Below are positions 4,265 through 61,944 of a stretch of 64,000 bases of DNA, in pieces. How positions within the stretch are numbered: position 1 is the stretch's first letter; each line of letters begins with the position of its first letter. The notes under the pieces were generated by a model that did not search any database, was not told where the DNA came from, and saw nothing but the letters and a program-made list of their open reading frames with translations. The DNA comes from an uncultured Nitrospiraceae bacterium. GTDB lineage: Bacteria > Nitrospirota > Nitrospiria > Nitrospirales > Nitrospiraceae. The stretch is taken from NCBI GenBank assembly GCA_963730935.1, contig CAVSTP010000004.1, forward strand, positions 832,001 to 896,000, in the 5' to 3' direction. A program made the translations under genes and the position numbers.

Positions 4265-4290
4265 ACAACCATCTCGCGGCAGCGGGCCGG
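4265..4290 (+). repeat. Array repeat copy (internal deletion)
   Basis: ACAACCATCTCGCGGCAGCGGGCCGG. Confidence 0.75.
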
Positions 4291-4312
4291 CTCCTTGCCT
4301 TCCGCAATGCAG

Positions 4313-4945
4313 TCAAAGTGCTTGCCGAGAGGCTTCCTGAGTTTCGATCACAACGCCGATCAAGCGAGCATCTCCGGGCATGTCATCAAGCACTACGCTG
4401 CTATTCGCGTCACGACTGACTCTGATATGCCATACGTCATTGTTCGCTGCAGGCGCTGGCTCGGTCACGTTGATGACGAGCGCAGTATTGAGGTGCTTGG
4501 TCGATTTCTTCGCCTGATCTGAGGCGCAGTGATGGGCAGTTCGCCTGAGAGAAGCGCCACCCTCACGCTTGAGATCAGTCGCAGTAACGAGTTCTACACA
4601 CCATCCTACTGAACCGATCGTGGACGCCGCTTGCCACATGATCGTGACATTGAGCTTCCCCCTAAATTGTCCAGGCAATGTGAACGGAACAATCGCGCTT
4701 TGAACCTCGTCGGCATCGAAGCTAAGTACCCCTTTCCTCACATCATTGCGTACCACGCAAGCAGGGGTTGGGGAGTTACCATCAGCAAGCGTCCATTCCG
4801 TCTTGGCGGTGGAACCGTGGCAATGCGCAGCAGAGAATGAGCTTTCCTCTTTACGAGGGCTCTTCACTTCAGCTCCCGAATCTAAGACGCTGAGCAGTGT
4901 GACTGACAGCACTATCAATCCAACGACGGACGCTAGGGGCTTCAT
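4313..4945 (-). CDS. Exported hypothetical protein
   Basis: ORF with N-terminal hydrophobic signal; ends 23 bp from repeat. Confidence 0.6.
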   Translation of the reverse strand: MKPLASVVGLIVLSVTLLSVLDSGAEVKSPRKEESSFSAAHCHGSTAKTEWTLADGNSPTPACVVRNDVRKGVLSFDADEVQSAIVPFTLPGQFRGKLNVTIMWQAASTIGSVGWCVELVTATDLKREGGASLRRTAHHCASDQAKKSTKHLNTALVINVTEPAPAANNDVWHIRVSRDANSSVVLDDMPGDARLIGVVIETQEASRQAL

Positions 4946-5051
4946 GACAAGCTTCCCTCTTCGTCGAGGCAACGACCGGAAGTCTACGCTCAACGCAATC
5001 CCAGAGCAACCATTGCAGTCTTGAGGAAAGGAAAGAGGACATTCTCCTCCC

Positions 5052-5419
5052 TCAGCTTGTCGTTAGCTCCTTGAAGATCCGCTCCGCTTCCGGTTTATAT
5101 TTTCGCTCCCACGTATATCGGTAATGGGGATACTCGGCATGAACCACAGCTTCCACTTGCTTTCTTGCATCCTCGATTCTCCCCTGCTTCCTGTAGAGCT
5201 TGGCAAGAAGGATCCTTGCGTTAGCGTAATTCCCGTCGGCCGCAATAGCCCGTTCGAAATACTCTTGAGCTTTCTTTTCACTGCCGCCCAGGAACCGAGG
5301 GAGCTCCAGCAACATCCCACCCATCATCTGTAGGGATTGCGCATGCTTGGGGTTGATTTCGATCGCGCGCGTTACACAGCTCTCAGCTCATTGATCACGA
5401 GCGAAAGATACACCGCTTA
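5052..5419 (-). pseudogene. 3' fragment of a TPR-repeat protein, cut at the repeat
   Basis: RAIEINPKHAQSLQMMGGMLLELP...AQEYFERAIAADGNY TPR-like; frameshift near 5380; no start codon, coding-like sequence runs up to the repeat. Confidence 0.6.
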
Positions 5420-5448
5420 ACAACCATCTTGCGGCGCGTGCGGACCGG
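5420..5448 (+). repeat. Array repeat copy
   Basis: ACAACCATCTTGCGGCGCGTGCGGACCGG. Confidence 0.8.
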
Positions 5449-5498
5449 CTTGTTCCTCGCCTCCCTGCCCTCACCGCTCATCGCACCTCACACCGCGG

Positions 5499-5527
5499 TA
5501 GACCCCGCCGACGTGAAAATGTAGAAT
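5499..5527 (+). promoter_or_regulatory. Sigma70-like promoter downstream of repeat
   Basis: TAGACC-N17-TAGAAT. Confidence 0.55.
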
Positions 5528-5559
5528 GGCCTGGCGTTTTTTTGCAGGGCCATCCCCTC

Positions 5560-5883
5560 ATGAACGAACTATTCGAACGCTATCCGTTTCTTCGCGTGCT
5601 TTCAAAGTGCACGCACCTTGACTATTCCTCCTTGATGGTGCCACAAGGTCCACTGTCCGCATCACTGGGACAATTCGACAGCATTCATCGCTGTCATTCC
5701 ATTGTGTATCAGACCTGTAAGGATGCTCGCATCCCGCTTCGCGCGCAGTTGTGCCGCTACCTTCAACCTGCGTTCCTGAAGGCGGAGGCTGTACAGGCGC
5801 TCCAAGACCTCGAATCGTCGTTGCCCGACGACACAGCCATTGTCGCGTACGCAGCACCACTGCAAATCAGAGTAAAGACCTAG
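5560..5883 (+). CDS. Hypothetical protein
   Basis: ORF fills the unit between promoter and next repeat. Confidence 0.5.
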   Translation: MNELFERYPFLRVLSKCTHLDYSSLMVPQGPLSASLGQFDSIHRCHSIVYQTCKDARIPLRAQLCRYLQPAFLKAEAVQALQDLESSLPDDTAIVAYAAPLQIRVKT

Positions 5884-5903
5884 AGGGTGGGGATGTCGAC
5901 TAG

Positions 5904-6029
5904 GCGGCGCGTGGCGGGCTCCTTTCCTCTCCTCTTCATTCCTCTCACCTGCATAGATCAAACCTCTGAGAAGAAGTAGAATACACTCCCTTTCTGCCTC
6001 GCAACGGATCATTCACGGAGGGCACCATG
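5904..6029 (+). repeat. Repeat core plus promoter/RBS leader, duplicated at 19588-19717
   Basis: GCGGCGCGTGGCGGGC followed by TAGATC-N17-TAGAAT and GGAGGGCACCATG. Confidence 0.85.
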
Positions 6030-6281
6030 CTGGACTGCGTGACGTGCAAGTGGATTAAATGGAGTGCGAGCATCCCCGTTGTCTTGCTCTTCGGTGCCGC
6101 TGGCTTCCTAGTCCTCGCGCAGGTCGCTGTGGCTCAGGATAATGCGCCCGCTGTTCTCCTCGACCTCTACCTGGCGACCTGGTCGTATATTTTGGCCGTC
6201 GCCGGCGTAGCACTTCTCACAGGCTGGTGGCTGTGGAAATCGATCCACATGCGGACTGCACATGCGCTTCGGCCATGTTGA
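6027..6281 (+). CDS. Small two-TM membrane protein
   Basis: Two hydrophobic segments; RBS GGAGG. Confidence 0.6.
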   Translation: MLDCVTCKWIKWSASIPVVLLFGAAGFLVLAQVAVAQDNAPAVLLDLYLATWSYILAVAGVALLTGWWLWKSIHMRTAHALRPC

Positions 6282-6290
6282 AGGAATAAG

Positions 6291-6327
6291 AAAAGGTGTC
6301 AGGAACCGTTCCGGCGCGTGCCGGGCC
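6291..6327 (+). repeat. Array repeat copy with AAAAGGTGTCAGGAACC upstream motif
   Basis: AAAAGGTGTCAGGAACCGTTCCGGCGCGTGCCGGGCC. Confidence 0.85.
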
Positions 6328-6452
6328 CCGTTTCCTCGATTTAGAACGTGGTAGGCGTGTCCACCGACATGTCCTCGCGGGATCCGGGGCATGGCCGCGC
6401 ACAGTACGCGAACCAGCATTTTCGGTGCAAGAAAAAGTAGCCTGTCCCCTTT
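6327..6452 (-). mobile_element. Remnant of Y1 HUH transposase (RAYT/IS200-like): upstream motif plus first 22 codons
   Basis: ATG at 6392 gives MPRIPRGHVGGHAYHVLNRGNG, then runs into the repeat; AAAGGGGACAGGCTACTTTT at 6452-6433. Confidence 0.75.
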
Positions 6453-6457
6453 AAAAA

Positions 6458-6703
6458 CTATTGCTCATAATTCTCGACGACCTGCGGCGGGCGAACTTGT
6501 GCGTCGTCAGGGTCGAGCCCGACATCGCGAAGGGCACGTCGCTGGCGCAAGAGGTCCCAGCACTGATCCAGTTCGACTTGGACTTGCGCGAGCCGCTTAA
6601 GATCGGCTTTGGGAAGTTTCCCTTGCTGGTACAATCGCTGTTCCTCTGCGACAAGGCGCTGAATATAATTGAGGACCGGCTGATCCCTGACTCGATTCTC
6701 CAC
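6458..6703 (-). CDS. DUF2630 family protein
   Basis: IQRLVAEE...VELDQCWDLLRQRRA...VVENYEQ; true start possibly GTG at 6688. Confidence 0.8.
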   Translation of the reverse strand: MENRVRDQPVLNYIQRLVAEEQRLYQQGKLPKADLKRLAQVQVELDQCWDLLRQRRALRDVGLDPDDAQVRPPQVVENYEQ

Positions 6704-6811
6704 GAGAGCCTCCTCTCACGCGGATATGATCGAAACGGCACGATTTTATGTTACGCCCCACCGAAATTGGGGTCAACCGAAGCTGACCAACATGATGTTC
6801 CCAGTGAACAG

Positions 6812-6845
6812 AAAGACGGGGCCATCTGCATTTCGCGGCGCGTGG
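6812..6845 (+). repeat. Array repeat copy
   Basis: AAAGACGGGGCCATCTGCATTTCGCGGCGCGTGG. Confidence 0.8.
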
Positions 6846-6927
6846 TACTCAGATGCACTCGGCCTATCCCAGCCGGGGTTTGCGGGATTTCAAAACTTTG
6901 GCTAGAGTAGCTAGGATGAGTAGGAGT

Positions 6928-7218
6928 ATGGCGTCTTTTTCACTCGTGAAAACTATCGCAGTGCTTTTTGCCCTGTTCACCCTGACGTCATGCATCGATG
7001 CCCCCCGGACAGAATTCATGGGACCGAACGGCAAAATGGTCTATGCCATCTCATGTCAGACAATGGATGATTGCGCGACAGAGGCGCGGGAATTTTGCCC
7101 AAGTGGACACAACATCGTTCCCGCTGCGTCTGGAGCAGGTGACACGACGGCGAGAGGTGGAATTGGCGGCACGCCTGAAAGAAGGCTACTAATCGAGTGT
7201 AAAGCACCATCGCCCTAA
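6928..7218 (+). CDS. Putative lipoprotein
   Basis: Lipobox LTSC; RBS AGGAG. Confidence 0.65.
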   Translation: MASFSLVKTIAVLFALFTLTSCIDAPRTEFMGPNGKMVYAISCQTMDDCATEAREFCPSGHNIVPAASGAGDTTARGGIGGTPERRLLIECKAPSP

Positions 7219-7253
7219 GTCGCTCTCTTCTTTTTTGGACTTGTGGGGATAAG

Positions 7254-7298
7254 AAAAGGAGACAGGCAGCATTCTGAATCTCGCGGCGCGTGGCGGGC
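7254..7298 (+). repeat. Array repeat copy
   Basis: AAAAGGAGACAGGCAGCATTCTGAATCTCGCGGCGCGTGGCGGGC. Confidence 0.85.
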
Positions 7299-7487
7299 TA
7301 GCGACTCCTCGCCTCCCCCACTCCGCTCACGCCAACCCGATGGATACAACACCTAATATGCACCACATCCCAACGAGACAACTGCTGACTGTTGCATTGA
7401 CAGGGTCGAGTAAACTCAGTAGCCTTCCCTAGCCTGGATCCACAGACGCGCTTCATCGGCATTCTACCTCTTCCAAAGGAGGCTTCG

Positions 7488-7871
7488 ATGGCCACGTTCA
7501 TGCGTCCCTATGCCGCTCAGTCGTACGCGCTCCTGCGAATCGTGACCGGCTTTCTTTTTCTCTGGCACGGGACCCAAAAACTATTGAGTATCCCCACACC
7601 TCCGCCGCCTCAAATCCCATCGTTCGTCATTGCGATTGCAGGTCCGATTGAACTCATCGGCGGCACGTTGGTAATGCTCGGGCTGTTTACAGGATGGGCG
7701 GCGTTTCTCTGCAGCGGGCTCATGGCGTTCGCGTATTGGATGGCCCACGGCACAAACGCCCCTCTACCCATTCAGAATATGGGCGAGTTAGCTGCACTGT
7801 ACTGCTTCGTATTCTTGTATATCTCTACTCAAGGCTCAGGCATCTGGAGTGTGGACGCTGTACGAAAGTAG
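7488..7871 (+). CDS. DoxX family membrane protein
   Basis: LLRIVTGFLFLWHGTQKL, GSGIWSVD; promoter TTGACA-N17-TAGCCT at 7397-7425. Confidence 0.85.
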   Translation: MATFMRPYAAQSYALLRIVTGFLFLWHGTQKLLSIPTPPPPQIPSFVIAIAGPIELIGGTLVMLGLFTGWAAFLCSGLMAFAYWMAHGTNAPLPIQNMGELAALYCFVFLYISTQGSGIWSVDAVRK

Positions 7872-7957
7872 ACCTGACAGCACCAAAATGCCTGGCTCGT
7901 GAGAGACACGCCTGCGAAATCTAGTGATAAATCATCGTGCGGATGATGGCCGGAGTT

Positions 7958-7993
7958 GTGTCAGGAACCGTCCTGCGGCGCGTGCCTGACCGG
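7958..7993 (+). repeat. Array repeat copy
   Basis: GTGTCAGGAACCGTCCTGCGGCGCGTGCCTGACCGG. Confidence 0.75.
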
Positions 7994-8137
7994 CTTGGTC
8001 GCGCGTACCCTCGCCTCCTCGCGTAATCCCTCCCCCGTTCAATTCTCTCAAAAAGTAGCAAGTTCCAATTCTTTTGCTATGCTTTTCTGAAGCATACGCC
8101 TGAACTGATCCGGCACGTCCAGCAGAGGTGAAAACCA

Positions 8138-8989
8138 ATGATGAATGATCGACGATGGAGAATGGTTTCCTGGCTCAACCTCGCGATCGTGGGACTCCTG
8201 ACGTTCACATCGGGAATCGTCCATGCCAATGAGATATCAGATCAAGTGTTGATGGCCGCTGCACAAATTGGAAAGGTGGATGCCGTGAAACGTTTGTTAG
8301 CCGAAGGGGCAAATATAGAGACGACCGACCAACACGGCAGGACCGCCCTTGATGTGGCTATCGCATTCGATCAAACAGACGTGGTGAAGTTGTTGCTGAC
8401 GGCTGGGGCCAATGTAAATGCGGGAACCGGCAATCGAAAGACTGCTTTGCACATAGCCGCCGCATCCGGGAAGACCGACATCGTGAAAGCGGTACTCGAT
8501 GCCGGGGCACGAGTCGATGTTGCCGATCAGGACGGCAATGAACCCCTTCACATCGCTGTGGCCAACCCAACAAACGGACAAATTGTGAAGGATCTGCTTC
8601 ACGCAGGAGCAAGAGTGGATGTGGCAAACAACGATGGCATGCAACCTATACACCTGGCTGCTCGGTCTGCAGGCGCGGGCACCGTCCAGACGCTCCTCGA
8701 CTCCGGTGCAAAGTCAGATGCAGTCGATCTTCACGGCCTGCGGCCCCTGCATCTAGTCGCACAAGGAGGCGCACAGAAAATCAAAGCATCTCGCACGTCC
8801 GCTAACAGTCTCACGAAGTTGCTCTACGGATGGGAATATACGATGGTCGTGAAGGTGCTGCTCTCCGGCGGTGCAAGCCTCGACGTGGAGGATAAAACGG
8901 GCAGACGCCCTATAGATTATGCTTCCGAAGGCGGCTTTTCCGAAATGGTTGACCTCTTGCTAGCCGCAGGCGCCAAACCACCGCGTTAG
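8138..8989 (+). CDS. Exported ankyrin-repeat protein
   Basis: Signal peptide; repeated G-TALH-AA...LL-AGA-V motifs. Confidence 0.9.
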   Translation: MMNDRRWRMVSWLNLAIVGLLTFTSGIVHANEISDQVLMAAAQIGKVDAVKRLLAEGANIETTDQHGRTALDVAIAFDQTDVVKLLLTAGANVNAGTGNRKTALHIAAASGKTDIVKAVLDAGARVDVADQDGNEPLHIAVANPTNGQIVKDLLHAGARVDVANNDGMQPIHLAARSAGAGTVQTLLDSGAKSDAVDLHGLRPLHLVAQGGAQKIKASRTSANSLTKLLYGWEYTMVVKVLLSGGASLDVEDKTGRRPIDYASEGGFSEMVDLLLAAGAKPPR

Positions 8990-9016
8990 ACTGTGTCCTC
9001 CTGCGAAAAGCAACGA

Positions 9017-9051
9017 TGCCAGAAACCGTTTCGCGGCGCGTGGCGGGCCGG
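9017..9051 (+). repeat. Array repeat copy
   Basis: TGCCAGAAACCGTTTCGCGGCGCGTGGCGGGCCGG. Confidence 0.9.
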
Positions 9052-9056
9052 CCGTC

Positions 9057-9599
9057 CTAAGGCGTAATATTTGTGTATTCCTCATACGGGTCTGGAGTTC
9101 TCTCCCCCCGTCCCACCCATACAATCGCCCTTTTGTCCCTGAGTGCGCTTGCAAGGTTTTGGCTCAGGCGCACTTGATAGTTGTATTTTCCCTGATTCGC
9201 GAAACAGAGGCTGGCAGAAGAGTTCGGTTCGATAAGAGCAGAAAGGGCAATGTGCTCTTCTGTCTTGAACCCTGTGTTACATGAAATTCGGTTCGCAACT
9301 GATGATGGGAAACTGATGACAATCGGCTCAGTCAATGTGTTACGCCATTGCACCTCATCTCCCAGCCCAACAAGGACTTGGCGAGGTTCCACCTCATGTG
9401 CCACATCAACGTTGCGTATTGTGCTTTTGCCCGTTGAAGGAGAGACAGAACTGCATCCCACCAAGAGCAGTCCGAGCGCGATATGAAGGAGGCCATTAGG
9501 TGTGAGAAGCCGTTCATACAATACGTGCGTCGCGTGGAGGGCCAGCTTGGCTAAAGTCTTTCCCCTCACAATGTCCCCTCTTTTATCGCCTCCTGGCAA
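9057..9599 (-). CDS. Putative lipoprotein, cupredoxin-like fold (start uncertain)
   Basis: Lipobox LVGC; GDEVQWRN, SLCF..GKYNY; stop 6 bp from repeat. Confidence 0.6.
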   Translation of the reverse strand: MPGGDKRGDIVRGKTLAKLALHATHVLYERLLTPNGLLHIALGLLLVGCSSVSPSTGKSTIRNVDVAHEVEPRQVLVGLGDEVQWRNTLTEPIVISFPSSVANRISCNTGFKTEEHIALSALIEPNSSASLCFANQGKYNYQVRLSQNLASALRDKRAIVWVGRGERTPDPYEEYTNITP

Positions 9600-9842
9600 G
9601 ACAGGGCGGCAAAATACAGCTTAATCCCTACCGGTGTCAGAAATCGAGACAGCTCTCTCACAAACTGTGAATCATTTCGATACCAGGAAGAGTACGCTTT
9701 CTGATTCAGCACGTATTTCCTCATTGCGACTCCCTCATCAGATTTCTTGCGTTTATCTTCCAATTCCCGCTCCGCATGAGCGGCATTCTGCTTGCTCATA
9801 GTACTCCGACAGAAGGCTCACATCATGAAGTCCTGAGGCACA

Positions 9843-10388
9843 ATGATCCAGACTGTTGTCGCTATCACGGCCTTATGCATCTTCTTACATGGAAGGAATC
9901 TGCTTGCAGCCGAGTTCAAGGCCACCGTGACTCGCGTGATCGATGGCGACAGCCTTGAGGTCTCACATGATAATCGTGCATTGACCATTCGACTGCATGG
10001 CGTTGACGCGCCGGAGATCAGCCAACCTTACGGACGCATTGCCATGGTTGCGGTCTTCCGCCAAGTATTTGGGAAGGTCGTCAGAATAGAGACGCATGGG
10101 TTGGATGCGCATGGCCGAACGATTGGAGACGTCTATTTGCCGGATGACACGCTGCTCAATCAGGAAATGGTGAGACTAGGACTCGCTTGGTGGTACTGTA
10201 AGCACTCTCACGATGAAGGTCTCCGCCAACTCGAACTTGAGGCCCGGGAGGCGAAGCTCGGTCTATGGAAAGACTCTGAAGCCAGTCCGCCTTGGATCTT
10301 CCGCCAACGTTATGGTATCGGCCTGGATTATTTTGATGGACGTTGCTTTCCCACAATACGTCTCACAGAAATAAACGCTGCAGAATAG
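9843..10388 (+). CDS. Thermonuclease (SNase) family protein
   Basis: RVIDGDS, IRLHGVDAPE, EAREAKLGLW. Confidence 0.9.
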   Translation: MIQTVVAITALCIFLHGRNLLAAEFKATVTRVIDGDSLEVSHDNRALTIRLHGVDAPEISQPYGRIAMVAVFRQVFGKVVRIETHGLDAHGRTIGDVYLPDDTLLNQEMVRLGLAWWYCKHSHDEGLRQLELEAREAKLGLWKDSEASPPWIFRQRYGIGLDYFDGRCFPTIRLTEINAAE

Positions 10389-10421
10389 CAACGAAACAAA
10401 GACGGCAGTTTTAAGAATTAG

Positions 10422-10460
10422 AAAAGGTGTCAGGAACCATTTCGCGGCGCGTAACGGACC
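10422..10460 (+). repeat. Array repeat copy
   Basis: AAAAGGTGTCAGGAACCATTTCGCGGCGCGTAACGGACC. Confidence 0.9.
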
Positions 10461-10673
10461 AACGAACTGTGCACTGTTTGCGTTGCCGGGGTATGGACGC
10501 GGAGAACGTGACGGCGTAGAGTATCGACGGTCGAATATCCCGCCTACCGCCTGTGGGGGGACCCTCTTTGTGGAAATCACTCGCAGCAACGGCCACGTTC
10601 ACTATCGCAATGATCTCCCCTGCTTCTCTTCTTACCAACAGGCCCGATTGAAAGGCATTTGAAAGGCATTCCC

Positions 10674-11465
10674 ATGGAGCTAGATCTTAAAGATAAAGTG
10701 ATCGTTGTGACGGGTGCCAGCAAAGGCATCGGCCTGGCTGTGGTCAAAGTGTTGGCCCGAGAGGGTGCTCGCATCGTCGCGGGCAGCCGGACCACGACTT
10801 CAGAACTCACCAGTCTACGTGATATGCACGATCTCACAGTGATTACGGTGGACCTCGCGACGGCCAACGGTCCCACCTCACTGATTGACGCGGCAGCGAA
10901 ACGGCACGGGAAGATCGACGTGTTAATAAACAATGTCGGCATCGCGAGTCCACGCTCAGGTTTTCTTGACATCAGTGATGATGAATGGCAGCGAGTGTTT
11001 AACCTCACTTTCTTCAGCGCAGTGCGTGCGACTCGTGCGGCACTGCCCCATCTTGTCGCCAGTCGAGGCGCGATCATCAACGTCGGTTCGATCAACGCTC
11101 GATTGCCGTTTCCGATGGTGGTGGACTACTCGGCGGCAAAAGCTGCTCTCTCCAACCTGAGCAAGGCACTTTCTGAGGAATTCGCGCCGCGCGGCGTACG
11201 GGTGAATGTGGTCGCCCCCGGCCCAGTACGCACCCCCTTCTGGACGGATCCAGGCGGGTTTGCCGATGTCGTCGCCTCTGGCTCTGGCGTCAGCGCCAAA
11301 ACCGCTCTCGACGAAACCGTACCGCGCAATATGGGAATCTCTACAGGCCGCGTCACTGAGGCGGATGAGGTTGCCGGCCTTGTGGCCTACCTTGCTTCGT
11401 CGCGTGCTGCCAACATTACCGGAGCCGAATTCGTCATCGACGGCGGTCAGGTTAAGACCACCTGA
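10674..11465 (+). CDS. SDR family oxidoreductase
   Basis: TGASKGIG, YSAAK. Confidence 0.9.
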   Translation: MELDLKDKVIVVTGASKGIGLAVVKVLAREGARIVAGSRTTTSELTSLRDMHDLTVITVDLATANGPTSLIDAAAKRHGKIDVLINNVGIASPRSGFLDISDDEWQRVFNLTFFSAVRATRAALPHLVASRGAIINVGSINARLPFPMVVDYSAAKAALSNLSKALSEEFAPRGVRVNVVAPGPVRTPFWTDPGGFADVVASGSGVSAKTALDETVPRNMGISTGRVTEADEVAGLVAYLASSRAANITGAEFVIDGGQVKTT

Positions 11466-55197: not shown

Positions 55198-55434
55198 TCT
55201 TATCGCCTCAATCTGCGTTTGTTAGTCACTTCGGGACCTATGCTCCTCAGAGTTAATTCTGGGATTCCCCCTAGGGCCGACCCTCTCGCGAGGGCCTACA
55301 TCAGCTTGGGAGAATCCGCTCCCAATCTCTCTCGCGCGTCAGAAGGATCCCCTCGGAGCTGTCCACCTGACGGCCCATTGAACCGTGGATTTCACCCGTC
55401 GACTCTTCCGTTCGTTGGGCGTACATGGTTAGCC

Positions 55435-55614
55435 ATGATGCAATCGGTACATTCAGAACCGCTCGGCATGCGCTGTTGGAAATGTCACGCCCCGCTCAAG
55501 GATGAGACAGTCGTCGATCTGAACAGTGGCCTGTCCATTCGACAGTTCGTGTGTCTCGGCTGCGGCCGCCGGTGGTTTAGCGGTGAGCGGCCACGACCGG
55601 CGATCGCAGCGTAA
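55435..55614 (+). CDS. Small Zn-ribbon protein
   Basis: CWKC...CLGC. Confidence 0.45.
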   Translation: MMQSVHSEPLGMRCWKCHAPLKDETVVDLNSGLSIRQFVCLGCGRRWFSGERPRPAIAA

Positions 55615-55751
55615 AAGTCTTCAAACGGCGCAAGCCAAGTGGCCGCCCGTCGTTTGGTCTCCTCCTTACGTTCCGAGGCGGAGTATAGTTCTCCCTTCGA
55701 CGTTTTCCTGCATTCTGTAGAAGCGCGTACTTATTCTTTATAAGGGGTGCA

Positions 55752-56069
55752 ATGATGAACATACGCATGATTCTCATCCTCACGCTATGTCTTCTCTTCT
55801 CCGTCAGTGCGACTGTCACGACCAGTGATGCGACGACCATCTTCGGCGGAAGCAGAATCATGGCCATCGATCAGGACCAGCGCACGATCACGTTTAAGAC
55901 AAAAGAAGGAGAGACCTGGACATTGCCAGTGACTGATCCCAACCTCTTGAATCGGCAACCAATCGCCAAAGGCGATCAAGTCACCATCGAAATTGATCTG
56001 AACGACCGGATTACCAATTGTCGTCAAGGCTTCGGAGGTGCCCACTGCTCCGAAACAGAGGATCGATGA
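55752..56069 (+). CDS. Exported hypothetical protein
   Basis: Signal peptide; KGDQVTIE. Confidence 0.55.
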   Translation: MMNIRMILILTLCLLFSVSATVTTSDATTIFGGSRIMAIDQDQRTITFKTKEGETWTLPVTDPNLLNRQPIAKGDQVTIEIDLNDRITNCRQGFGGAHCSETEDR

Positions 56070-56155
56070 CCGATACAGCGATCCAATCGACGACAATCTA
56101 AGCCACTTTCCGGCGTCTTATCGGTGAAGATGGGTTGGATGAAAGGAGACGCCTT

Positions 56156-57016
56156 ATGCCATACGTGACAGTCGGGAAAGAACGCTCCGCCAACATCGAG
56201 TTGTACTATGAAGATCACGGTACCGGTAAGCCGGTCGTGTTGATCCATGGATACCCATTGAGCGGCGCATCGTGGGAAAAGCAGCTTCCGGCGCTGCTGA
56301 ATGCTGGTTACCGAGTCATCACCTATGATCGACGAGGCTTTGGCAAATCCAGCCAACCGACCGGGGGCTACAACTATGACACGTTTGCAGAAGACCTTCA
56401 CACGCTGATCACCCACCTCAAGCTGCAAGACTTCACGCTGGTGGGATTCTCGATGGGCGGCGGGGAAATCGCGCGTTACTTCGGGAAGTACCGGTCCCAC
56501 GGAGCAAGCAAGGCTGTCATCATCGGTGGCGTACCTCCTTTCTTACTCAAAACCGACGACAACCCCGAAGGCGTGGACGGGACCGTGTTCGAGGGCATTC
56601 AAAAAGCCGTGGCCGCGGACCGCTACGCCTTCTTCACCGAGTTCTTCAAGAATTTCTACAATACCGATCTGCTTCTCGGGAAACACGTGAGCGATGAAGT
56701 GGTGCGCGCCAGTTGGAACGTTGCAGCCGGGGCATCTCCGACAGCGAGTTTGGCGTGTGTTCCAACTTGGCATGAAGACTTTAGGCAAGATCTGGCCCAC
56801 GTGGACGTGCCGACGCTGGTGATCCATGGTGACAATGACCGGATAGTGCCAATTACGGCGGCGGGCCAACGGACGGCCAAACTCATCAAAGGAGCTCGGC
56901 TGGTGGTGGTGAAGGGAGGCCCACACTGCATTACCTGGACACACGCTGAGGAAGTCACTGCCGAATTAGTGAAATTTCTCGGCGAAGAGCGCAAACCGAT
57001 GCGCGAAGTGGCTTAG
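56156..57016 (+). CDS. Non-heme haloperoxidase/arylesterase (alpha/beta hydrolase)
   Basis: LIHGYPL, YDRRGFG, GFSMGGG, HGDND. Confidence 0.9.
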   Translation: MPYVTVGKERSANIELYYEDHGTGKPVVLIHGYPLSGASWEKQLPALLNAGYRVITYDRRGFGKSSQPTGGYNYDTFAEDLHTLITHLKLQDFTLVGFSMGGGEIARYFGKYRSHGASKAVIIGGVPPFLLKTDDNPEGVDGTVFEGIQKAVAADRYAFFTEFFKNFYNTDLLLGKHVSDEVVRASWNVAAGASPTASLACVPTWHEDFRQDLAHVDVPTLVIHGDNDRIVPITAAGQRTAKLIKGARLVVVKGGPHCITWTHAEEVTAELVKFLGEERKPMREVA

Positions 57017-57049
57017 CTCAAGCAACGCGGGTTTCAGTTCCACCCGACA

Positions 57050-58255
57050 CTAGCCTTCCTCACTGAGATCGGAAGGCAAAGCGGTTTTTCTTGGGACTTG
57101 CGTTCCAGGACTGACTAGGTGGATTGGTAAAAAGGATTTGGCTGCGATGATTGTGGGTACCACGGCACTGGCAATGACCGCTGCGACCAGAAAGGAGTAC
57201 TGCTCTTCAGTTACCAACCCGTGAGACAAGCCAAAAAGGGCTGAAATCGTCCCAAAGGTCAACCCCGTGGACATTAACAGAGTGTAGAACCATCGTTCCT
57301 TGGGATGCTGACGAAACACGCTAATCAGGGGATACAGTCCCAAAATCTTAGCTGCCAACTTTCCAGCCAATAGCGAGAAGAAAACGAACGGGGCAGTCAG
57401 CAAGGCTGGAAGCGAGACCAACGTGCCCGCCCGGAGAAAATAAAAAGGCGTTAAAAATCCCACGGTCAGCGTACGAAGACGGCGCATCCAATGAACATCC
57501 TTGGCCGCTCCTCCGGCCAAGACCATTCCGGCGAGATACGCTGGTAAGACTGCTTCACTGCCCGACCAAAGCGCGAGCGCGCCAAGCCCGAATAGCATCA
57601 ACATGACCCACTTCGTACGGATTGCCGCCGTACGGTGACCGTAACGATCGGTCAGCCAATTAATACTGCCGGGAAGCACCCCTAGAACAATGGCTGTAGC
57701 GGCGATGAACACAACGGTTTTATAGGTGAACGGAGAGAACAGGAGCCCGAGCGCAACAACTGTTCCGAGGTCGTTAATGAAGCATGCGCCGAGTATCCCC
57801 TTGCCAAATTCTGTTTGATTCAAACCGCTTTCCAACATCACGGTATAGACAACCGCCATGGATGTCGTAGAAAGCGCAATGCCCGCCAACCAACTGGCAT
57901 CGGTGTTCCAACCAAGTCCGTAGTGCGCCAATGCAGCACATCCAAAGAAAGGCGCGAAAAATCCAACGAGGCCGACGATGTTCACTTCCGCTATTTTTTT
58001 CCGCATGACGTGAGGATCCAGTTCGGCTCCCGCAAGAAAGGTCAACAAGACGGCGCCCACGGCGGCCAAAAAGCGGAGCCATTCCGAATTGGCGGCAAGA
58101 AGATGCGTGCCGTCGAAAGCAGCTAACACCGAGGCGGCGGCTACACCAACGCAGATCTCAACCAGGGCTATTGAAAGACGAAGTGCCGACGCGAGGAGCG
58201 CGGATAAGACAGCGAGGAACAGCCAACAAGCGGCGATCGTGAAGGGATGTTCCAT
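57050..58255 (-). CDS. Cation:proton antiporter (CPA family), likely fluoride-related
   Basis: Many TM segments; LTFLAGAE, STTSMAVV, FINDLGTV; downstream of fluoride riboswitch. Confidence 0.8.
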   Translation of the reverse strand: MEHPFTIAACWLFLAVLSALLASALRLSIALVEICVGVAAASVLAAFDGTHLLAANSEWLRFLAAVGAVLLTFLAGAELDPHVMRKKIAEVNIVGLVGFFAPFFGCAALAHYGLGWNTDASWLAGIALSTTSMAVVYTVMLESGLNQTEFGKGILGACFINDLGTVVALGLLFSPFTYKTVVFIAATAIVLGVLPGSINWLTDRYGHRTAAIRTKWVMLMLFGLGALALWSGSEAVLPAYLAGMVLAGGAAKDVHWMRRLRTLTVGFLTPFYFLRAGTLVSLPALLTAPFVFFSLLAGKLAAKILGLYPLISVFRQHPKERWFYTLLMSTGLTFGTISALFGLSHGLVTEEQYSFLVAAVIASAVVPTIIAAKSFLPIHLVSPGTQVPRKTALPSDLSEEG

Positions 58256-58333
58256 GTAGAGTCCTCCGAAGGAATTTATGAACATGCCGCCTGTGTGGAG
58301 TGGCAAACACCTACGCAGACAGCTTCCTCTGTC

Positions 58334-58390
58334 GCGTAGGAGTCATCAGCCACTGCAGTGGCGGTTATCCGGGGGACTCCATCCCCTATC
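58334..58390 (-). ncRNA. Fluoride riboswitch (crcB motif)
   Basis: Minus strand GGGGATGGAGTCCCCCGGATAACCGCCACTGCAGTGGCTGATGACTCCTAC fits the GGxGAUGGxGUxCxCC...AAC...GCUGAUGACuCCUAC consensus. Confidence 0.85.
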
Positions 58391-58468
58391 TTTGCACTAT
58401 ATCTGTATCGACAAATGGTATCAATTCGAGTCAGAGTTCAGCCATAATTGCGTCTTCAGTGTTGTGAC

Positions 58469-58837
58469 CTATGTCCATCGACTCTCTGGACCTCCACCCA
58501 GGCGTGCGATGTCGGCATATTTCACGACTAGGTCAGCCAACCGTATTCCAGTGCGCTCCCCGTCAGCCAGAAAATCGCGCTTAGCCGCCTTCCACGCCTG
58601 TGTCCACTGATCCTCAGATGCCTCGATGTGGTAATACAACTCAAGCGTCGAGACGGCCTGGTCCGCCTCCTGCTCAGAGAGTCCCAACTCCTGCATGAGA
58701 TCGTTTCTCTGCTTTTTCCTTATCTCAATGTACTGTTGCACCAGGGATTTCACGTCATCGTTCATCGGTGCGCTCCTCGACTGCATATCGGTTGATCGTC
58801 CTTCACCGTCCGCAGCACCCATCAGGTAGCACTCCAC
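58469..58837 (-). CDS. Hypothetical protein
   Basis: 122-aa ORF. Confidence 0.45.
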   Translation of the reverse strand: MECYLMGAADGEGRSTDMQSRSAPMNDDVKSLVQQYIEIRKKQRNDLMQELGLSEQEADQAVSTLELYYHIEASEDQWTQAWKAAKRDFLADGERTGIRLADLVVKYADIARLGGGPESRWT

Positions 58838-58841
58838 GGTC

Positions 58842-59192
58842 TTAGAACACCATCACGTGATCGACCAGAAATGTGTCATCCTTTTCGACAAGGAGCATTT
58901 CGGCGACGAATTCACCAGGCGCCTTCGTGAACCACTGCTTCCAGATAATCGCCACTGCGCCAGGGCGTTTGAACACGGCGACAGGCTCCCGCCGCGAGAA
59001 ATAACCCTTCTCCCGCTGGTACTTCTCACAGACCTTCTGAAGGTACTCCTTTGTCACGAGCGTCTTCATTCTTTCGCTGAAGTCTCGAATGTGCCGCCCA
59101 TGATCGATTGCAGTCGATGCATCCATGAGATTGTCCATGATCGGATTGGCGACATGGAGGATTTCCTCATCAGACATTCTTTCCAGAGTCAT
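58842..59192 (-). CDS. Conserved hypothetical protein
   Basis: ANPIMDNLMDAST.ID...H.RDFS. Confidence 0.7.
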   Translation of the reverse strand: MTLERMSDEEILHVANPIMDNLMDASTAIDHGRHIRDFSERMKTLVTKEYLQKVCEKYQREKGYFSRREPVAVFKRPGAVAIIWKQWFTKAPGEFVAEMLLVEKDDTFLVDHVMVF

Positions 59193-59380
59193 TTGTCTCT
59201 CCAGTCAGTGCTACCGAACGCCCCCGGCTTCCTACCAAAAATGATGTGTGTGACAAGGTCTCAGGAACCTAAAAGAGACAAGAACATTAGGACAGGTCAG
59301 TGCGGCAGCGATAGTTTGTGACCTATCTACTGTGATACGGTTGCCACAGAGAAACGGCCGACACCCACGGAGGAGTCACC

Positions 59381-59812
59381 ATGATGCATGTTCTGTTTAT
59401 CGCGATCAGCTTGTTGAGCGCGAGCCAGGTTTTTGCTCAAGAACAGTCCTGTGGCTCGCAAGCCATGATGACCATGACCAAAGCAGACGGCTCGAAGTTA
59501 GGTCTCTTCATTTCCTTCGCACAAATATCCAGTTCGCCACCCTGGACACCGGAAGCAGGCGAGCCACCACTCGCCTTATCAAAGGCCGTACAACTCGCGA
59601 CGGAGTGGGCAAAAAAGGAATACAAGCGGTTTGACGGTGTTCAGGTTCGGAGTATCAATGTGACGGCGTACGGGTGCCCCGCGCCAAAAGACCGCTGGTA
59701 TTACACAGTTCACTTCGCACCTATCATGGATACGATTCCCCTGCTCGTCCCTGGCTATTTCGTTGCTGTCCTGATGGACGGCACGATCATCGGGCCCACG
59801 ACGGTGAAGTAA
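59381..59812 (+). CDS. Exported hypothetical protein
   Basis: Signal peptide; PPL..SKA, VLMDGT. Confidence 0.65.
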   Translation: MMHVLFIAISLLSASQVFAQEQSCGSQAMMTMTKADGSKLGLFISFAQISSSPPWTPEAGEPPLALSKAVQLATEWAKKEYKRFDGVQVRSINVTAYGCPAPKDRWYYTVHFAPIMDTIPLLVPGYFVAVLMDGTIIGPTTVK

Positions 59813-59823
59813 ATTGAGAGACG

Positions 59824-60216
59824 CTACTGGCGCAGCTTGGCTAGAACCGCAGCAGGGTCCCAGTAGGCCCATAACGACGTGATCCGGCCCGCCTCATTGA
59901 ATTCGAATACGTCGATGCCGGCCACCTCCACAGGCTTCAGATTCTTCCCGATGGCCTTGCCCCGGAACACGACCGCTGCGCGATTGCTCGCCGGATGCAC
60001 CGAGTCCGCTTGAATGCTGACGTCTTGAACCGCGTGTGCAATGCCCCCAAAGAACTCCCGCAACGCGCTTGCACCCTCACGCGGCGTACTCCCGTATGGA
60101 TCATGTACAACCGCCTTCTCATCAAAACAGGCCACATACGCAGAGGGATCGAGACTGCACCAGGCAGCGAAGTAGCGGTCTACGGCATCCGACATCTGTT
60201 TTGGAGAAAGAGGCAT
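59824..60216 (-). CDS. SnoaL/NTF2-like protein
   Basis: AVVHDPYG, GIDVFEFNEAGRI. Confidence 0.8.
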   Translation of the reverse strand: MPLSPKQMSDAVDRYFAAWCSLDPSAYVACFDEKAVVHDPYGSTPREGASALREFFGGIAHAVQDVSIQADSVHPASNRAAVVFRGKAIGKNLKPVEVAGIDVFEFNEAGRITSLWAYWDPAAVLAKLRQ

Positions 60217-60430
60217 AGTCTAAGAGGAGCGATCTTAGTACGTACGCCGCAATTTCGCAACGCGCAATGGTCGAAGTAAAGGGGTCTGGGGCGATGCACC
60301 GATGGACCTAGCCAACGATAAAAAGTACAATAGCACCGGTTCTTCTTGCAACCTACCGCGTTAGGTCGTCATCACTCTGTGGGCTTCACTTCGGCTAGGG
60401 AACATAGGGCCAGCGCACGGGGGAGTACAT

Positions 60431-61891
60431 ATGCAAAAGACACGCATTATCTGCACGATCGGCCCGGCTACGGAATCATACGAGATGTTGCAGAAGATGT
60501 ACGAGGCCGGGATGAGTATCGCGCGACTGAACATGTCCCACGGCGACCACGACTCGCACGCCAAGGTCATCCAACACATTAAGACGCTCAACAAGAAGGT
60601 CAAGTTTCCCATCCCTATCCTCCTGGATACGCAGGGCCCGTCGATCCGCACCGGGAACCTTTCCAACGAGCTCGATCTGCGGCAGGGCGCCATCGTCTCC
60701 GTCACCACGCGCGGGCCGATGGACGTTGAAGAGAGCTCCATCCACATTGACTATGAGGACTTGCTTGAGCAGGTCAACGTCGGGGACAAGATCACTGTGG
60801 ATAACGGATTGATCAATTTGGAGGTGCTGGAGAAGGAAGAGCGCCATATGCGGTGCCGTGTCTTGGACGGTGGGCTCTTGAAGAGTAAGCGCCACGTCAA
60901 TCTCCCGGGTATCCGTGTCAATCTGCCGGCGATCACGCAAAAGGACACCAAGGATATTCTGTTCGGCCTGGAACGGGATGTGGACTTCATCGCGCTTTCG
61001 TTCGTCCGTGAAGCCGCGGATATTCAGCAGCTCAAGGGACTCATGGGTGAAAAGGTCGGAAGGGTGAAGATTGTCGCAAAGATCGAGGACCAGGAAGGCG
61101 TGCGAAACCTGGAGGAGATCATCAGGGAATCGGATGGCATTATGGTCGCGCGTGGCGATCTGGGGGTGGAGATCAACATCGAGGATTTGCCGAATGTCCA
61201 GCGCACGATCGTACAGCGTTGTGCCGAGCACGGGAAACGTGTGATCGTTGCCACCCATCTCCTCGAATCCATGATCCACAATCCGCACCCTACCCGCGCC
61301 GAAGTCACGGACGTCGCCAACGCGATCTATGAAGAAGCCGATGCCGTCATGCTGTCCGGAGAAACCACGGTTGGGAAGTATCCGGTGAAATGTGTCGAAT
61401 ACCTGCGCAAGATCGCGCTGAAATCCGAGACGATTCCCGGATTGCGGTTTGCGAAACAATTGCGCGATACGGGCAATAAACAACAATTGGCGGCGGCGGC
61501 CGTTCAGCTCGCCGAGGGGGTCAACGCCAAGGGCATCGTCGTGATCACCAGACGGGGACTCATGGCCGATCTTGTCGCAAACTGCCGTCCGTTCTCGACC
61601 AACATCTATGCCTTTACCAACATGAGCCAACCGCGACGGACCATGATGCTCAACCGTGGTGTCTTTCCGTTCAAGATTGATTTCAGTTCGGACCCTGAAA
61701 AGACGCTGCAAACGGCGTTCCGGATCTTGAAGGAGCGAGAACAGTTTCAGGTTGGGGACAAGGTCGTGATCATCTCGGACGTGCTGGCTCAGCAACGTGT
61801 CGACTCGATTCAGATTCGTGATGTCCCCACGGATGACCTCTCGCCCGAAGCTTCTTCCGCAACGGGTGTAGTCTCCCCATCGATGGGGTAG
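60431..61891 (+). CDS. pyk: Pyruvate kinase
   Basis: TRIICTIGPA, RLNMSHG, AKIE, MVARGDLG, MLSGET; promoter TGGACC-N17-TACAAT at 60303-60331. Confidence 0.95.
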   Translation: MQKTRIICTIGPATESYEMLQKMYEAGMSIARLNMSHGDHDSHAKVIQHIKTLNKKVKFPIPILLDTQGPSIRTGNLSNELDLRQGAIVSVTTRGPMDVEESSIHIDYEDLLEQVNVGDKITVDNGLINLEVLEKEERHMRCRVLDGGLLKSKRHVNLPGIRVNLPAITQKDTKDILFGLERDVDFIALSFVREAADIQQLKGLMGEKVGRVKIVAKIEDQEGVRNLEEIIRESDGIMVARGDLGVEINIEDLPNVQRTIVQRCAEHGKRVIVATHLLESMIHNPHPTRAEVTDVANAIYEEADAVMLSGETTVGKYPVKCVEYLRKIALKSETIPGLRFAKQLRDTGNKQQLAAAAVQLAEGVNAKGIVVITRRGLMADLVANCRPFSTNIYAFTNMSQPRRTMMLNRGVFPFKIDFSSDPEKTLQTAFRILKEREQFQVGDKVVIISDVLAQQRVDSIQIRDVPTDDLSPEASSATGVVSPSMG

Positions 61892-61911
61892 CCTCTGCGA
61901 AACAGAACCGC

Positions 61912-61944
61912 TGTCAGGGACCATCTGGCCGCGCGTGGCGGGCC
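61912..61944 (+). repeat. Array repeat copy
   Basis: TGTCAGGGACCATCTGGCCGCGCGTGGCGGGCC. Confidence 0.75.

What the first reader, a model, noticed from the sequence alone, without database searches (positions are those of the whole stretch)
4265..61944. Candidate new system: about 58-kb gene-cassette array punctuated by about 40 co-oriented repeats, with no attC sites or integrase
Seen: a roughly 28-bp GC-rich core (AACCATTTCGCGGCGCGTGGCGGGCCGG) recurs at about 4265, 5420, 5904, 6300, 6830, 7280, 7965, 9022, 10435, 11467, 11876, 13640, 14279, 14970, 17545, 18375, 18874, 19581, 20035, 21980, 23504, 25178, 25730, 26250, 28351, 31520, 32438, 33890, 36613, 38027, 41177, 44284, 46009, 46833, 47454, 48596, 48815, 50495, 51695, 51760, 55175 and 61920. 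Every clear copy is on the + strand regardless of the orientation of neighbouring genes. Units between copies usually carry 1-3 unrelated genes, and more in the longest distal units. Established: ordinary REPs occur in both orientations or as inverted pairs, CRISPR spacers are short and uniform, and integron attC sites are bounded by RYYYAAC/GTTRRRY; none of these fits. Inference: the repeat is a polar recombination or insertion site used repeatedly to add cargo, giving a superintegron-like gene reservoir. The core can fold into a small bulged hairpin (CCA-TTT-CGC-GGC-GCG-TGG), the kind of ssDNA structure HUH transposases recognise.
Basis: partly seen in the sequence, partly recalled or inferred. 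Interest (0 to 1): 0.92.

Follow-up and report, generated by a model that had tools for sequence, protein, structure and literature searches.

The report
Integrase-free gene-cassette array in Nitrospira
A soil Nitrospira chromosome carries a roughly 100-kb stretch in which small gene units, separated by same-direction copies of one short repeat, are reshuffled between species and strains without any integron machinery, so it may be a second, still uncharacterised way of building a gene reservoir.

Summary
A 26-nt GC-rich core recurs 38 times on the + strand of the window and never on the - strand. Genome-wide, 53 of 60 profile hits lie in one 103-kb array, C4:798,869-902,080, all on +.

The repeat occurs in 19 of 24 genomes of the genus that were searched.

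Units between cores are shared with other species at 80-95% identity but in a different order. Contigs from soil and sediment metagenomes break or join at the cores.

It is not an integron:
- the genome has no IntI;
- AAC/GTT boxes, R-arm pairing and a conserved fold are all missing;
- an attC scan that finds real attC sites in two control integrons finds almost nothing here.

The genome's only HUH Y1 transposase, a RAYT, lies inside the array. It is flanked by inverted copies of a hairpin that also precedes some of the cores.

Best reading: an integron-like cassette array whose junction modules are REP/BIME-type repeats, with units moved by recombination between co-oriented modules. The catalyst is not known: RAYT about 35%, RecA-type recombination about 30%.

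Earlier notes of this scan describe similar RAYT-linked arrays on other DNA.

The parts
4265..61947 (+). Part of the cassette array that lies in the window. The whole array is G000:C4:798,869-902,080, which is window -33,131 to +70,080.
5407..5457 (+). junction core copy
   Evidence: nhmmer
5883..5931 (+). junction core copy
6283..6333 (+). junction core copy, directly abutting a RAYT gene fragment
6324..6419 (-). Fragment of the RAYT gene: its first 32 residues, 78% identical, cut off at the core.
6432..6454 (-). Hairpin A (REP-like) copy, reversed. It follows the stop of the - strand gene 6458-6703.
6806..6845 (+). junction core copy
7255..7309 (+). junction core copy
9006..9054 (+). Junction core copy. 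Metagenome contigs diverge at 9049/9052.
10414..10461 (+). Junction core copy. Loose ends at 10415-10452 in two runs.
11862..11907 (+). junction core copy
13635..13665 (+). junction core copy
14946..15001 (+). junction core copy
17535..17579 (+). Junction core copy. A joint 12856->17548 and a loose end at 17572.
18354..18410 (+). Junction core copy with a B1 hairpin. Loose end at 18385.
18862..18909 (+). Junction core copy. Joint 16618->18885.
19559..19615 (+). junction core copy
20017..20072 (+). Junction core copy. Loose ends at 20032 in three runs with two different partners, and at 20049 and 20064.
20380..20402 (+). hairpin A (REP-like) copy
21956..22013 (+). junction core copy with a B2 hairpin
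23494..23530 (+). junction core copy
25162..25213 (+). junction core copy
25705..25758 (+). junction core copy
26246..26286 (+). junction core copy
31520..31549 (+). junction core copy
32421..32464 (+). junction core copy
33866..33920 (+). junction core copy
36586..36633 (+). junction core copy
41159..41204 (+). junction core copy
44264..44308 (+). junction core copy
47434..47483 (+). junction core copy
48807..48841 (+). junction core copy
55160..55204 (+). junction core copy (weak, E 0.07)
61898..61947 (+). junction core copy
7966..7994 (+). diverged core copy, found by the repeat finder and the score scan only
28328..28375 (+). diverged core copy with a B2 hairpin
38024..38052 (+). diverged core copy
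5499..5527 (+). Promoter-like box (TAGAC, 17-18 nt, TAGAAT) closing a full-length junction module.
17609..17637 (+). promoter-like box after the core at 17535
19642..19670 (+). promoter-like box after the core at 19559
22036..22064 (+). promoter-like box after the core at 21956
62045..62074 (+). promoter-like box after the core at 61898

Best explanation
The window lies inside a roughly 103-kb variable locus that sits at a conserved chromosomal place in this Nitrospira genus. The locus is a chain of units of 1-3 unrelated genes. Each joint between units carries a junction module. Its constant part is a 26-nt GC-rich core, always in the same direction. About half of the copies have a REP-like hairpin in front. 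About a quarter are followed by a sigma-70-like promoter box that reads into the next unit.

Units are cut out and put back by recombination between co-oriented modules, through a circle that keeps one module (Campbell-type). This keeps every core in one direction and lets units change neighbours one at a time.

Shown: the anatomy, the clustering, the strict polarity, the reshuffling between species and strains, and break points at the cores.

Inferred: the circle intermediate and the catalyst. My odds for the catalyst are:
- about 35% the RAYT (HUH Y1 single-strand DNA transposase) that lives in the array, acting on one strand;
- about 30% RecA-type recombination between the 26-150-nt repeats;
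- about 20% an unrecognised sequence-specific recombinase;
- about 10% an integron integrase acting in trans.

The modules are filed as REP/BIME-type mosaic repeats, not as attC sites.
For: Clustering and polarity: 53 of 60 genome hits lie in one locus, all on +, and the window has 38 + and 0 - sites.

Position relative to genes: the left neighbour of a core is a + strand gene in 40 of 53 cases, and in 27 of those the stop codon lies within 106 nt. Right neighbours are 29 on + and 24 on -.

Genus-wide: the core is found in 19 of 24 genomes of the genus, and in 0 of 16 genomes from three other families of the order. Both flanks are conserved in relatives.

Shuffling: 11 blocks shared with one contig of G006 keep their direction but lie in the order 826.9, 839.4, 857.7, 847.1, 848.7, 884.7, 864.5, 878.9, 868.1, 891.8, 878.1 kb of G000. 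A 953-nt unit is present in G000 and absent in G006.

Break points: homology between shared units stops in or at the edges of the core.

Strain level: contigs of four metagenome runs show joints and loose ends at the cores at 9049/9052, 10415-10452, 17548/17572, 18375/18385, 18885 and 20032-20064.

RAYT link:
- It is the only Y1_Tnp match in the genome, at C4:809,462-810,139.
- Its HUH motif and catalytic Tyr align with E. coli TnpA-REP, PDB 4ER8.
- Inverted hairpin A copies flank it in G000, G046 and G001.
- RAYT gene fragments sit at unit borders.
- 15 of 20 hairpin A copies in the genome lie in the array.
- The B2 hairpin in front of 8 cores shares its first half with hairpin A.

By GC skew, the strand complementary to the cores is the lagging-strand template.
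Against: No step of the mechanism was observed.

Only 3 of 33 genomes of the genus have an intact RAYT at 71% identity or more, while the core occurs in most of them, including genomes that are 98-99% complete and give no RAYT match (G003, G020). The core is therefore kept without this RAYT.

26 of 53 cores have no recognisable hairpin in front, and only 8 have hairpin A upstream.

The core has no conserved fold on either strand, whereas known HUH transposases read hairpins.

No core lies next to the RAYT gene itself.

The crossover could not be placed. Some pairs carry the core with the left unit and others carry its 3' half with the right unit, which is what homologous exchange anywhere in the repeat would give.

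Contigs cannot show circles or rare forms.
Confidence: 0.55

Rival explanations
1. The junction module is first of all a regulatory spacer, ending one transcript and starting the next. The reshuffling is then a by-product of RecA-dependent recombination and gene conversion between its many copies, including integration of circles or of taken-up DNA. The RAYT and its hairpins are lodgers in a permissive region.
For: A promoter-like box follows 13 of 53 cores, and the consensus scan flags it 4 times in 11.5 kb. Apparent crossovers fall on both sides of the core. Cores persist in genomes with no RAYT match. Full-length modules offer up to about 150 nt of homology. Campbell-type exchange by homology also keeps repeats in one direction (established knowledge).
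Against: The core never flips with gene direction: 0 reversed copies against 43 - strand genes. Hairpin A does flip. The module has no terminator features. 26 nt is at the lower limit for RecA exchange (recalled). The central 14 nt are at least 90% conserved across species while the neighbouring genes are 80-90% identical. This points to reading by a sequence-specific protein.
Confidence: 0.27
2. The array is a degenerate or unusual integron (CALIN). Its sites would be recombined in trans by the integron integrase that some species of the genus still carry.
For: Bona fide IntI genes, above the TIGR02249 cut-off, occur in 3 of 33 genomes of the genus, with fragments or a pseudogene in 3 more. 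Two of the intact ones are 94% identical and have no cassettes beside them. Sites sit right after ORFs. IntegronFinder 2.0 reported two CALINs in one Nitrospira (PMC9024848, passages read).
Against: G000 has no IntI or remnant of one. In G046 the IntI gene lies about 1.5 Mb from the array, and in G005 it is on another contig. AAC is present in 74 of 135 sites and GTT in 47 of 135. R-arm pairing scores 4.12 of 7 against 4.26+-0.10 for shuffled partners. RNAalifold predicts 0 pairs on either strand. Spanning inverted repeats are no more frequent than at random places, 21 of 53 against 82 of 200. A crude attC scan gives 0.36 hits per 10 kb here. It gives 5.56 per 10 kb in a Gemmatirosa integron region and recovers 1 of 2 class 1 attC sites.
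Confidence: 0.08
3. A dedicated but unrecognised sequence-specific recombinase, encoded elsewhere in the core genome or among the unknown array genes, acts on the double-stranded core. The core is an imperfect dyad: CC, 4 nt, CGCG, 1 nt, CGCG, 4 nt, GG.
For: The primary sequence is strongly conserved and there is no fold. The dyad can be read directly from the copies. The core persists regardless of RAYT or IntI. 38 of the 98 array proteins scanned have no Pfam family.
Against: Pfam, PHROGs and PADLOC find no candidate gene among the array proteins. Nothing recombinase-like lies at the conserved flanks. The 13 tyrosine-recombinase matches in the genome all lie far from the array.
Confidence: 0.18
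4. The motif is a replichore-skewed or chance motif with no link to gene content.
For: All copies lie in a region of uniform negative GC skew.
Against: 53 of 60 hits fall within 2.6% of the genome. 0 matches are expected in shuffles. Unit borders coincide with the cores.
Confidence: 0.01

Closest known systems
Sedentary chromosomal integrons (Vibrio superintegron type) and CALINs (clusters of attC sites lacking integrase)
   Same: A very long array at a fixed chromosomal place. It holds mostly small unrelated genes. A co-oriented site lies just after the ORF. Units are reshuffled between strains and species.
   Different: There is no IntI in the genome. The site is a conserved primary sequence without AAC/GTT boxes, R/L pairing or a conserved fold. 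About 40% of the genes are reversed. Many units bring a promoter-like box.
REP/BIME elements with their RAYT (TnpA-REP, REPtron, REPIN-RAYT systems)
   Same: A single-copy RAYT with HUH motif and Tyr, flanked by inverted hairpin repeats in three species. The hairpin copies lie just after stop codons. Junctions are mosaic, built from several short modules.
   Different: REPs are dispersed over the chromosome in tens to hundreds of copies and in both directions (recalled). Here 53 of 60 core copies and 15 of 20 hairpin copies sit in one locus. The core is strictly one-directional and not palindromic, and it marks movable gene units.
IS200/IS605 peel-and-paste transposition (Y1 HUH TnpA)
   Same: The same enzyme superfamily. 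A strand-specific, orientation-fixed reaction tied to the lagging-strand template would explain the polarity.
   Different: No pair of left-end and right-end hairpins per unit was found. There is no tnpB. The transposase is not carried by the units.
Tandem accretion of islands at one attachment site (for example composite SCC elements) and pdif modules
   Same: Units without their own recombinase are separated by repeated copies of a short recombination site.
   Different: Those use known serine or tyrosine recombinases or XerCD. pdif sites alternate in direction. No such enzyme or site type is seen here. This comparison is recalled and was not tested.

Membership tests
Integron / CALIN | Integron integrase (IntI) next to the array or elsewhere in the genome | tested here: not met
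   TIGR02249: best hit 86 bits against a cut-off of 265. The nearest PF00589 matches on this contig are more than 60 kb away. tblastn with a relative's IntI finds only Xer-like hits at 28% identity.
Integron / CALIN | attC site: AAC and GTT triplets in complementary R boxes, L boxes, imperfect hairpin | tested here: not met
   AAC in 74 of 135 sites, GTT in 47 of 135, and R-arm pairing no better than with shuffled partners. 0 consensus pairs on either strand. The attC scan has positive controls. No spanning inverted repeat above background. IntegronFinder itself could not be run.
Integron / CALIN | Site directly after the cassette ORF, all sites co-oriented | tested here: met
   40 of 53 left neighbours are + strand genes, 27 of them within 106 nt of the stop. 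53 of 53 cores are on +.
REP/RAYT (REPtron) | Y1 HUH transposase of the RAYT type with HUH motif and catalytic Tyr | tested here: met
   PF01797 at 52 bits against a cut-off of 23. NF047646 at 72.9 bits, just under its cut-off of 80. The alignment to PDB 4ER8 keeps both motifs.
REP/RAYT (REPtron) | RAYT gene flanked by inverted copies of the repeat | tested here: met
   Hairpin A flanks the gene at C4:809,448 (+) and 810,153 (-). The same holds in G046, and the downstream inverted copy is seen in G001. This applies to hairpin A only, not to the core.
REP/RAYT (REPtron) | Repeat is a short palindrome that forms a hairpin | tested here: inconclusive
   Hairpin A and the B1 hairpin fold as 7-8-bp stems in single copies. 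The core has no conserved fold.
REP/RAYT (REPtron) | Copies dispersed over the genome, in both directions | tested here: not met
   Core: 53 of 60 hits in one locus, all on +. Hairpin A: 15 of 20 in the array, 11 on + and 4 on -.
CRISPR array | Short uniform spacers between identical repeats | tested here: not met
   Spacing is 156-8129 nt and the intervals hold whole genes. No Rfam match.
Skewed chromosomal motif (Chi/KOPS-like) | Spread along the whole replichore | tested here: not met
IS200/IS605 | Sub-terminal hairpins at both ends of each mobile unit | tested here: inconclusive
   Hairpins are seen only on the 5' side of the core, in 27 of 53 copies. No partner was found at the other end of the units.

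The most novel reading that the evidence does not exclude
Nitrospira keeps a chromosomal gene-capture platform that behaves like a superintegron but runs on other parts. Those parts are a sequence-specific, one-directional 26-nt junction site and a single-strand (HUH/RAYT) or still unknown recombinase. Some junction modules also supply a promoter to the next unit. If the similar RAYT-linked arrays noted by this scan in other phyla are the same thing, this would be a widespread second class of cassette system, independent of integrons.
Probability: 0.3. Interest if true: 0.9.

Novelty: new variant of a known kind. Interest (0 to 1): 0.72.

Why it matters
Integrons are the only well-understood machine that stockpiles and reshuffles single-gene cassettes in bacterial chromosomes. 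This locus has the same outcome: about 100 kb, more than 50 units, a different order in each species, and variants among soil strains. Yet it has neither the integron enzyme nor the integron site.

If a dedicated enzyme is at work, it would be a new route of gene capture in a globally important group of nitrifiers. It would also be a possible new recombination tool with a short, directional site.

If the reshuffling is only homologous exchange, it shows how REP/BIME-like repeats can turn a chromosomal region into a cassette store. That bears on how accessory genomes are built.

Either way, the array explains a hot spot of gene-content variation in Nitrospira genomes and MAGs, and a likely cause of broken assemblies there.

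Tried and rejected
**RNA families and tRNAs.** Rfam gave no family for the repeat at gathering score on the window or at E<=1 on 11.5 kb of full-length modules. It gave none for the side element either. No tRNA or tmRNA lies in 136 kb around the array, so this is not accretion at a tRNA gene.

**Candidate enzymes.**
- The last conserved gene at the left flank (295 aa, no Pfam) looked like a possible divergent recombinase. Its translation is the N-terminus of a B12-binding radical-SAM enzyme.
- Thirty array proteins without a Pfam family gave 1 PHROG hit, of unknown function.
- PADLOC hits are limited to TIR, caspase and HIT genes at the left edge, one nuclease-like protein and an adenosine deaminase, so this is not a defence island.

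**attC-like readings.**
- A short attC formed by AGGAAC ... GTTCCT around the core: the consensus folds at -9.4 kcal/mol, but the arms do not covary.
- A long attC or MITE with GACATTCT ... AGAATGTC ends: this is clear in one unit only (C4:807,301). Spanning inverted repeats occur at 21 of 53 cores against 82 of 200 random places.

**Other dead ends.**
- Placing the crossover by comparing pairs with the same left unit or the same right unit: 9 and 6 pairs, several of them false sites in coding DNA. The result was ambiguous.
- The left edge of the array showed no clear attI-like site.
- Neighbours of the 7 core copies outside the array showed no shared enzyme gene.

**Literature.** Three full-text searches (Nitrospira + integron + attC; RAYT/REPIN/cluster/gene cassette; Nitrospira/hypervariable/genomic island/repeat) listed no paper that describes this array (listings only, except passages of PMC9024848). 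Supplementary tables of PMC9024848 were not opened. They may list which Nitrospira genomes were scanned.

Full report
**Observation**

- With up to 3 mismatches the 28-mer occurs 6 times, all on +, against 0 expected in 100 shuffles.
- The repeat finder collects 23 + strand copies.
- A local-alignment score against the 25-nt core supports 37 of the 42 listed positions. Their scores exceed every - strand score. The unsupported positions are 46833, 48596, 50495, 51695 and 51760.
- The whole window holds 38 + sites and 0 - sites.

The window is G000:C4:832,001-896,000. A profile of the copies finds 60 hits in the 4.05-Mb genome at E<=0.1. Of these, 53 lie between C4:798,869 and 902,080, all on +. 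The array is therefore about 103 kb long. It begins 33 kb before the window and ends 6 kb after it.

**Anatomy**

The constant part is about 26 nt, as in window 9026-9051. Its central 14 nt are at least 90% conserved across 80-89 copies from several species.

Features found around the 53 cores:

| Feature | Copies |
|---|---|
| B1 hairpin directly in front (stem GAAANGGT/ACCNTTTC) | 19 |
| B2 variant in front | 8 |
| No hairpin in front | 26 |
| Further REP-like hairpin A upstream | 8 |
| C/T-rich stretch plus box TAGAC, 17-18 nt, TAGAAT downstream | 13 |

The B2 variant shares its first half with hairpin A. The promoter-like box is itself almost confined to the array: 17 of the 20 + strand matches on C4 lie there, and none on the - strand. 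The promoter scan scores it 9 of 12.

My own ORF calls, made with a codon model trained on this genome, give 107 genes of 60 aa or more in the array, 64 on + and 43 on -. The gene to the left of a core is on + in 40 of 53 cases, and 27 of these have their stop within 106 nt. To the right the split is 29 on + and 24 on -. The core keeps its direction whatever the genes do. Hairpin A flips with the gene.

The cargo is a mix of small enzymes and unknowns. It includes short-chain dehydrogenases, methyltransferases, hydrolases, SnoaL, PilZ, GYD, response regulators, PagL, adenosine deaminase and pyruvate kinase. It is not a defence island.

**Relatives**

- The core occurs in 19 of 24 genomes of the genus drawn as relatives and in 0 of 16 genomes from three other families of the order. 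Copies are clustered and co-oriented on each contig.
Most record titles name Nitrospira or Nitrospiraceae, with single hits in unrelated GC-rich taxa.
- Both flanks of the array are conserved. G000 790,001-795,560 matches the stretch just before the arrays of G046 and G005, and 905.3-908.2 kb matches the stretch after the G005 array.
- Inside the array, units are shared at 80-95% identity but not in order. Eleven blocks on one G006 contig correspond to G000 positions 826.9, 839.4, 857.7, 847.1, 848.7, 884.7, 864.5, 878.9, 868.1, 891.8 and 878.1 kb. All keep their direction. One extra inverted copy of a unit exists in G006.
- A 953-nt unit (C4:847,775-848,727) is present in G000 and absent from the otherwise continuous G006 sequence.

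**Strains**

Contigs of four DNA runs from soil and freshwater-sediment metagenomes were laid on window 8001-28000. Most pieces are 95-99% or more alike. Their joints and loose ends pile up at the cores:
- 9049/9052
- 10415-10452, in two runs
- 17548/17572
- 18375/18385
- 18885
- 20032, in three runs with two different left partners
- 20049 and 20064

The joints skip 4.7 kb (12856 to 17548) and 2.3 kb (16618 to 18885). Contigs cannot show circles or rare forms. The clip points mark where similarity ends, not the crossover itself.

**Not an integron**

- The genome has no integron integrase. The best TIGR02249 score is 86 bits against a cut-off of 265, on a Xer-like gene 745 kb away.
- A relative's IntI finds no remnant in G000.
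- IntI does exist in the genus: above the cut-off in 3 of 33 genomes, with pieces in 3 more. In G046 it lies about 1.5 Mb from the array, and in G005 it is on another contig. The repeat is absent from its neighbourhood.
- The site itself fails the attC tests. AAC is present in 74 of 135 sites and GTT in 47 of 135. R-arm pairing scores 4.12 of 7 against 4.26+-0.10 with shuffled partners.
- RNAalifold predicts 0 pairs on the + strand (80 copies) and on the - strand (89 copies).
- Inverted repeats that span the core are no more common than at random places, 21 of 53 against 82 of 200.
- A crude attC scan gives 4 hits in 111 kb here. The same scan finds about 15 evenly spaced 96-nt GCCTAAC...GTTAGGC sites beside the IntI of a Gemmatirosa plasmid, and 1 of the 2 expected attC sites of a class 1 integron.
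- IntegronFinder 2.0 reported only two CALINs in the phylum, both in one other species (PMC9024848, passages read). I could not see which genomes it scanned.

**The RAYT**

- Pfam on 98 array proteins turned up one mobile-element enzyme: C4:809,462-810,139 (-), 225 aa, Y1_Tnp. It is the only match to that family in the genome.
- It scores 72.9 bits on NCBIfam's REP-associated tyrosine transposase model, whose cut-off is 80.
- It aligns to E. coli TnpA-REP (4ER8) with the HUH motif and the Tyr in place.
- Inverted copies of hairpin A flank it. The same arrangement holds for the 71%-identical orthologues of G046 and G001, which also lie at or in their arrays.
- The reverse strand of hairpin A contains GTAG. 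I recall this as the tag of many REPs; it is named in the title of PMC3733652, which I saw only in the listing.
- Pieces of the RAYT gene sit at unit borders: C4:805,004-805,156, window 6324-6419 and two places in relatives. The window fragment is cut exactly where a core begins.
- GC skew puts an origin-like minimum near 1.76 Mb and a terminus-like maximum near 0.38 Mb of C4. On that reading the strand complementary to the cores is the lagging-strand template, the strand that HUH transposases of the IS200/IS605 type use (the rule is recalled).

**What speaks against the RAYT as the engine**

- Only 3 of 33 genomes of the genus have an intact close orthologue. Arrays with well-kept cores occur in near-complete genomes without one.
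- Half of the cores have no hairpin.
- The core has no fold.
- Variants in the 5' part of the core tend to travel with the left unit and variants in the 3' part with the right unit, but exceptions exist. This fits a crossover near the centre or 3' edge of the core. It fits homologous exchange equally well.

**Verdict**

The finding is a real, large, genus-wide cassette array without integron parts. Its junctions are best filed as REP/BIME-type mosaic repeats linked to a resident RAYT. The movement of units by recombination between co-oriented modules is well supported. The enzyme is open.

Earlier notes of this scan describe RAYT-linked, co-oriented repeats at cassette borders in Gallionellaceae, Negativicutes, Bdellovibrionota, Aminicenantes and Syntrophales. 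I did not test those notes and they are not independent evidence, but they suggest the pattern is not peculiar to Nitrospira.

Three literature searches listed no description of such arrays.

Noticed in passing
window 58330-58395 (-) and 57050-58306 (-): A fluoride riboswitch (Rfam RF01734, 55.9 bits) lies directly upstream of a 418-aa Na+/H+-exchanger-family gene, inside one of the long distal units of the array.
   Followed up: partly
G000 C4:533,392, 534,152, 535,662, 536,439, 273,535, 426,525, 970,171; C3:20,804 and 22,145; C1:178,658 (loci L025-L030): A second repeat of about 60-95 nt that ends in GACACCCCTTCCCAAGGGTGG. It has 10 copies in the genome and none in the array. It lies 70-100 nt after four of the core copies outside the array and forms a small array of its own at 533-536 kb. 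One metagenome contig places its start right after the core at window 20064. No Rfam family and no shared neighbouring gene were found.
   Followed up: partly
L005:14233-14384 (G046) and L009:6430-6581 (G005): The integron integrase genes of two relatives have no cassette array beside them. They do have a conserved 150-nt structure just after their stop codon: two 23-nt inverted arms, 91% complementary, 106 nt apart. It begins with GTT and ends with AAC, the reverse of the attC order.
   Followed up: partly
L001:15816-19375 (C4:795,816-799,375), left edge of the array: TIR-domain, caspase-like and HIT-family genes lie in a row. PADLOC matches them to ThsB, caspase and ThsC models. They sit between the conserved flank and the first cores.
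   Followed up: partly
window 5941-6029 vs 19629-19717; window 33099-33198 vs 33970-34069: Two pairs of near-identical promoter and leader stretches (91% and 84%) stand in front of different units. The first pair ends at the start codons of an 84-aa gene and of a GYD-domain gene.
   Followed up: no
full-length modules, e.g. C4:807,267-807,420: The 8-mer GACATTCT of the B2 hairpin recurs reverse-complemented as AGAATGTC, overlapping the TAGAAT box at the other end of the module. Only one unit extends this into a clear 16-nt inverted repeat.
   Followed up: partly
whole array, C4:798,869-902,080: By GC skew the + strand here is the lagging strand, so 64 of the 107 array genes would be transcribed head-on to replication. 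That is unusual for a bacterial chromosome.
   Followed up: no
L011:2141-3012 and 7266-8137 (G006): One unit, the homologue of C4:822,697-823,568, is present twice in G006, once inverted together with a reversed core. This is the only reversed core seen in that array.
   Followed up: no
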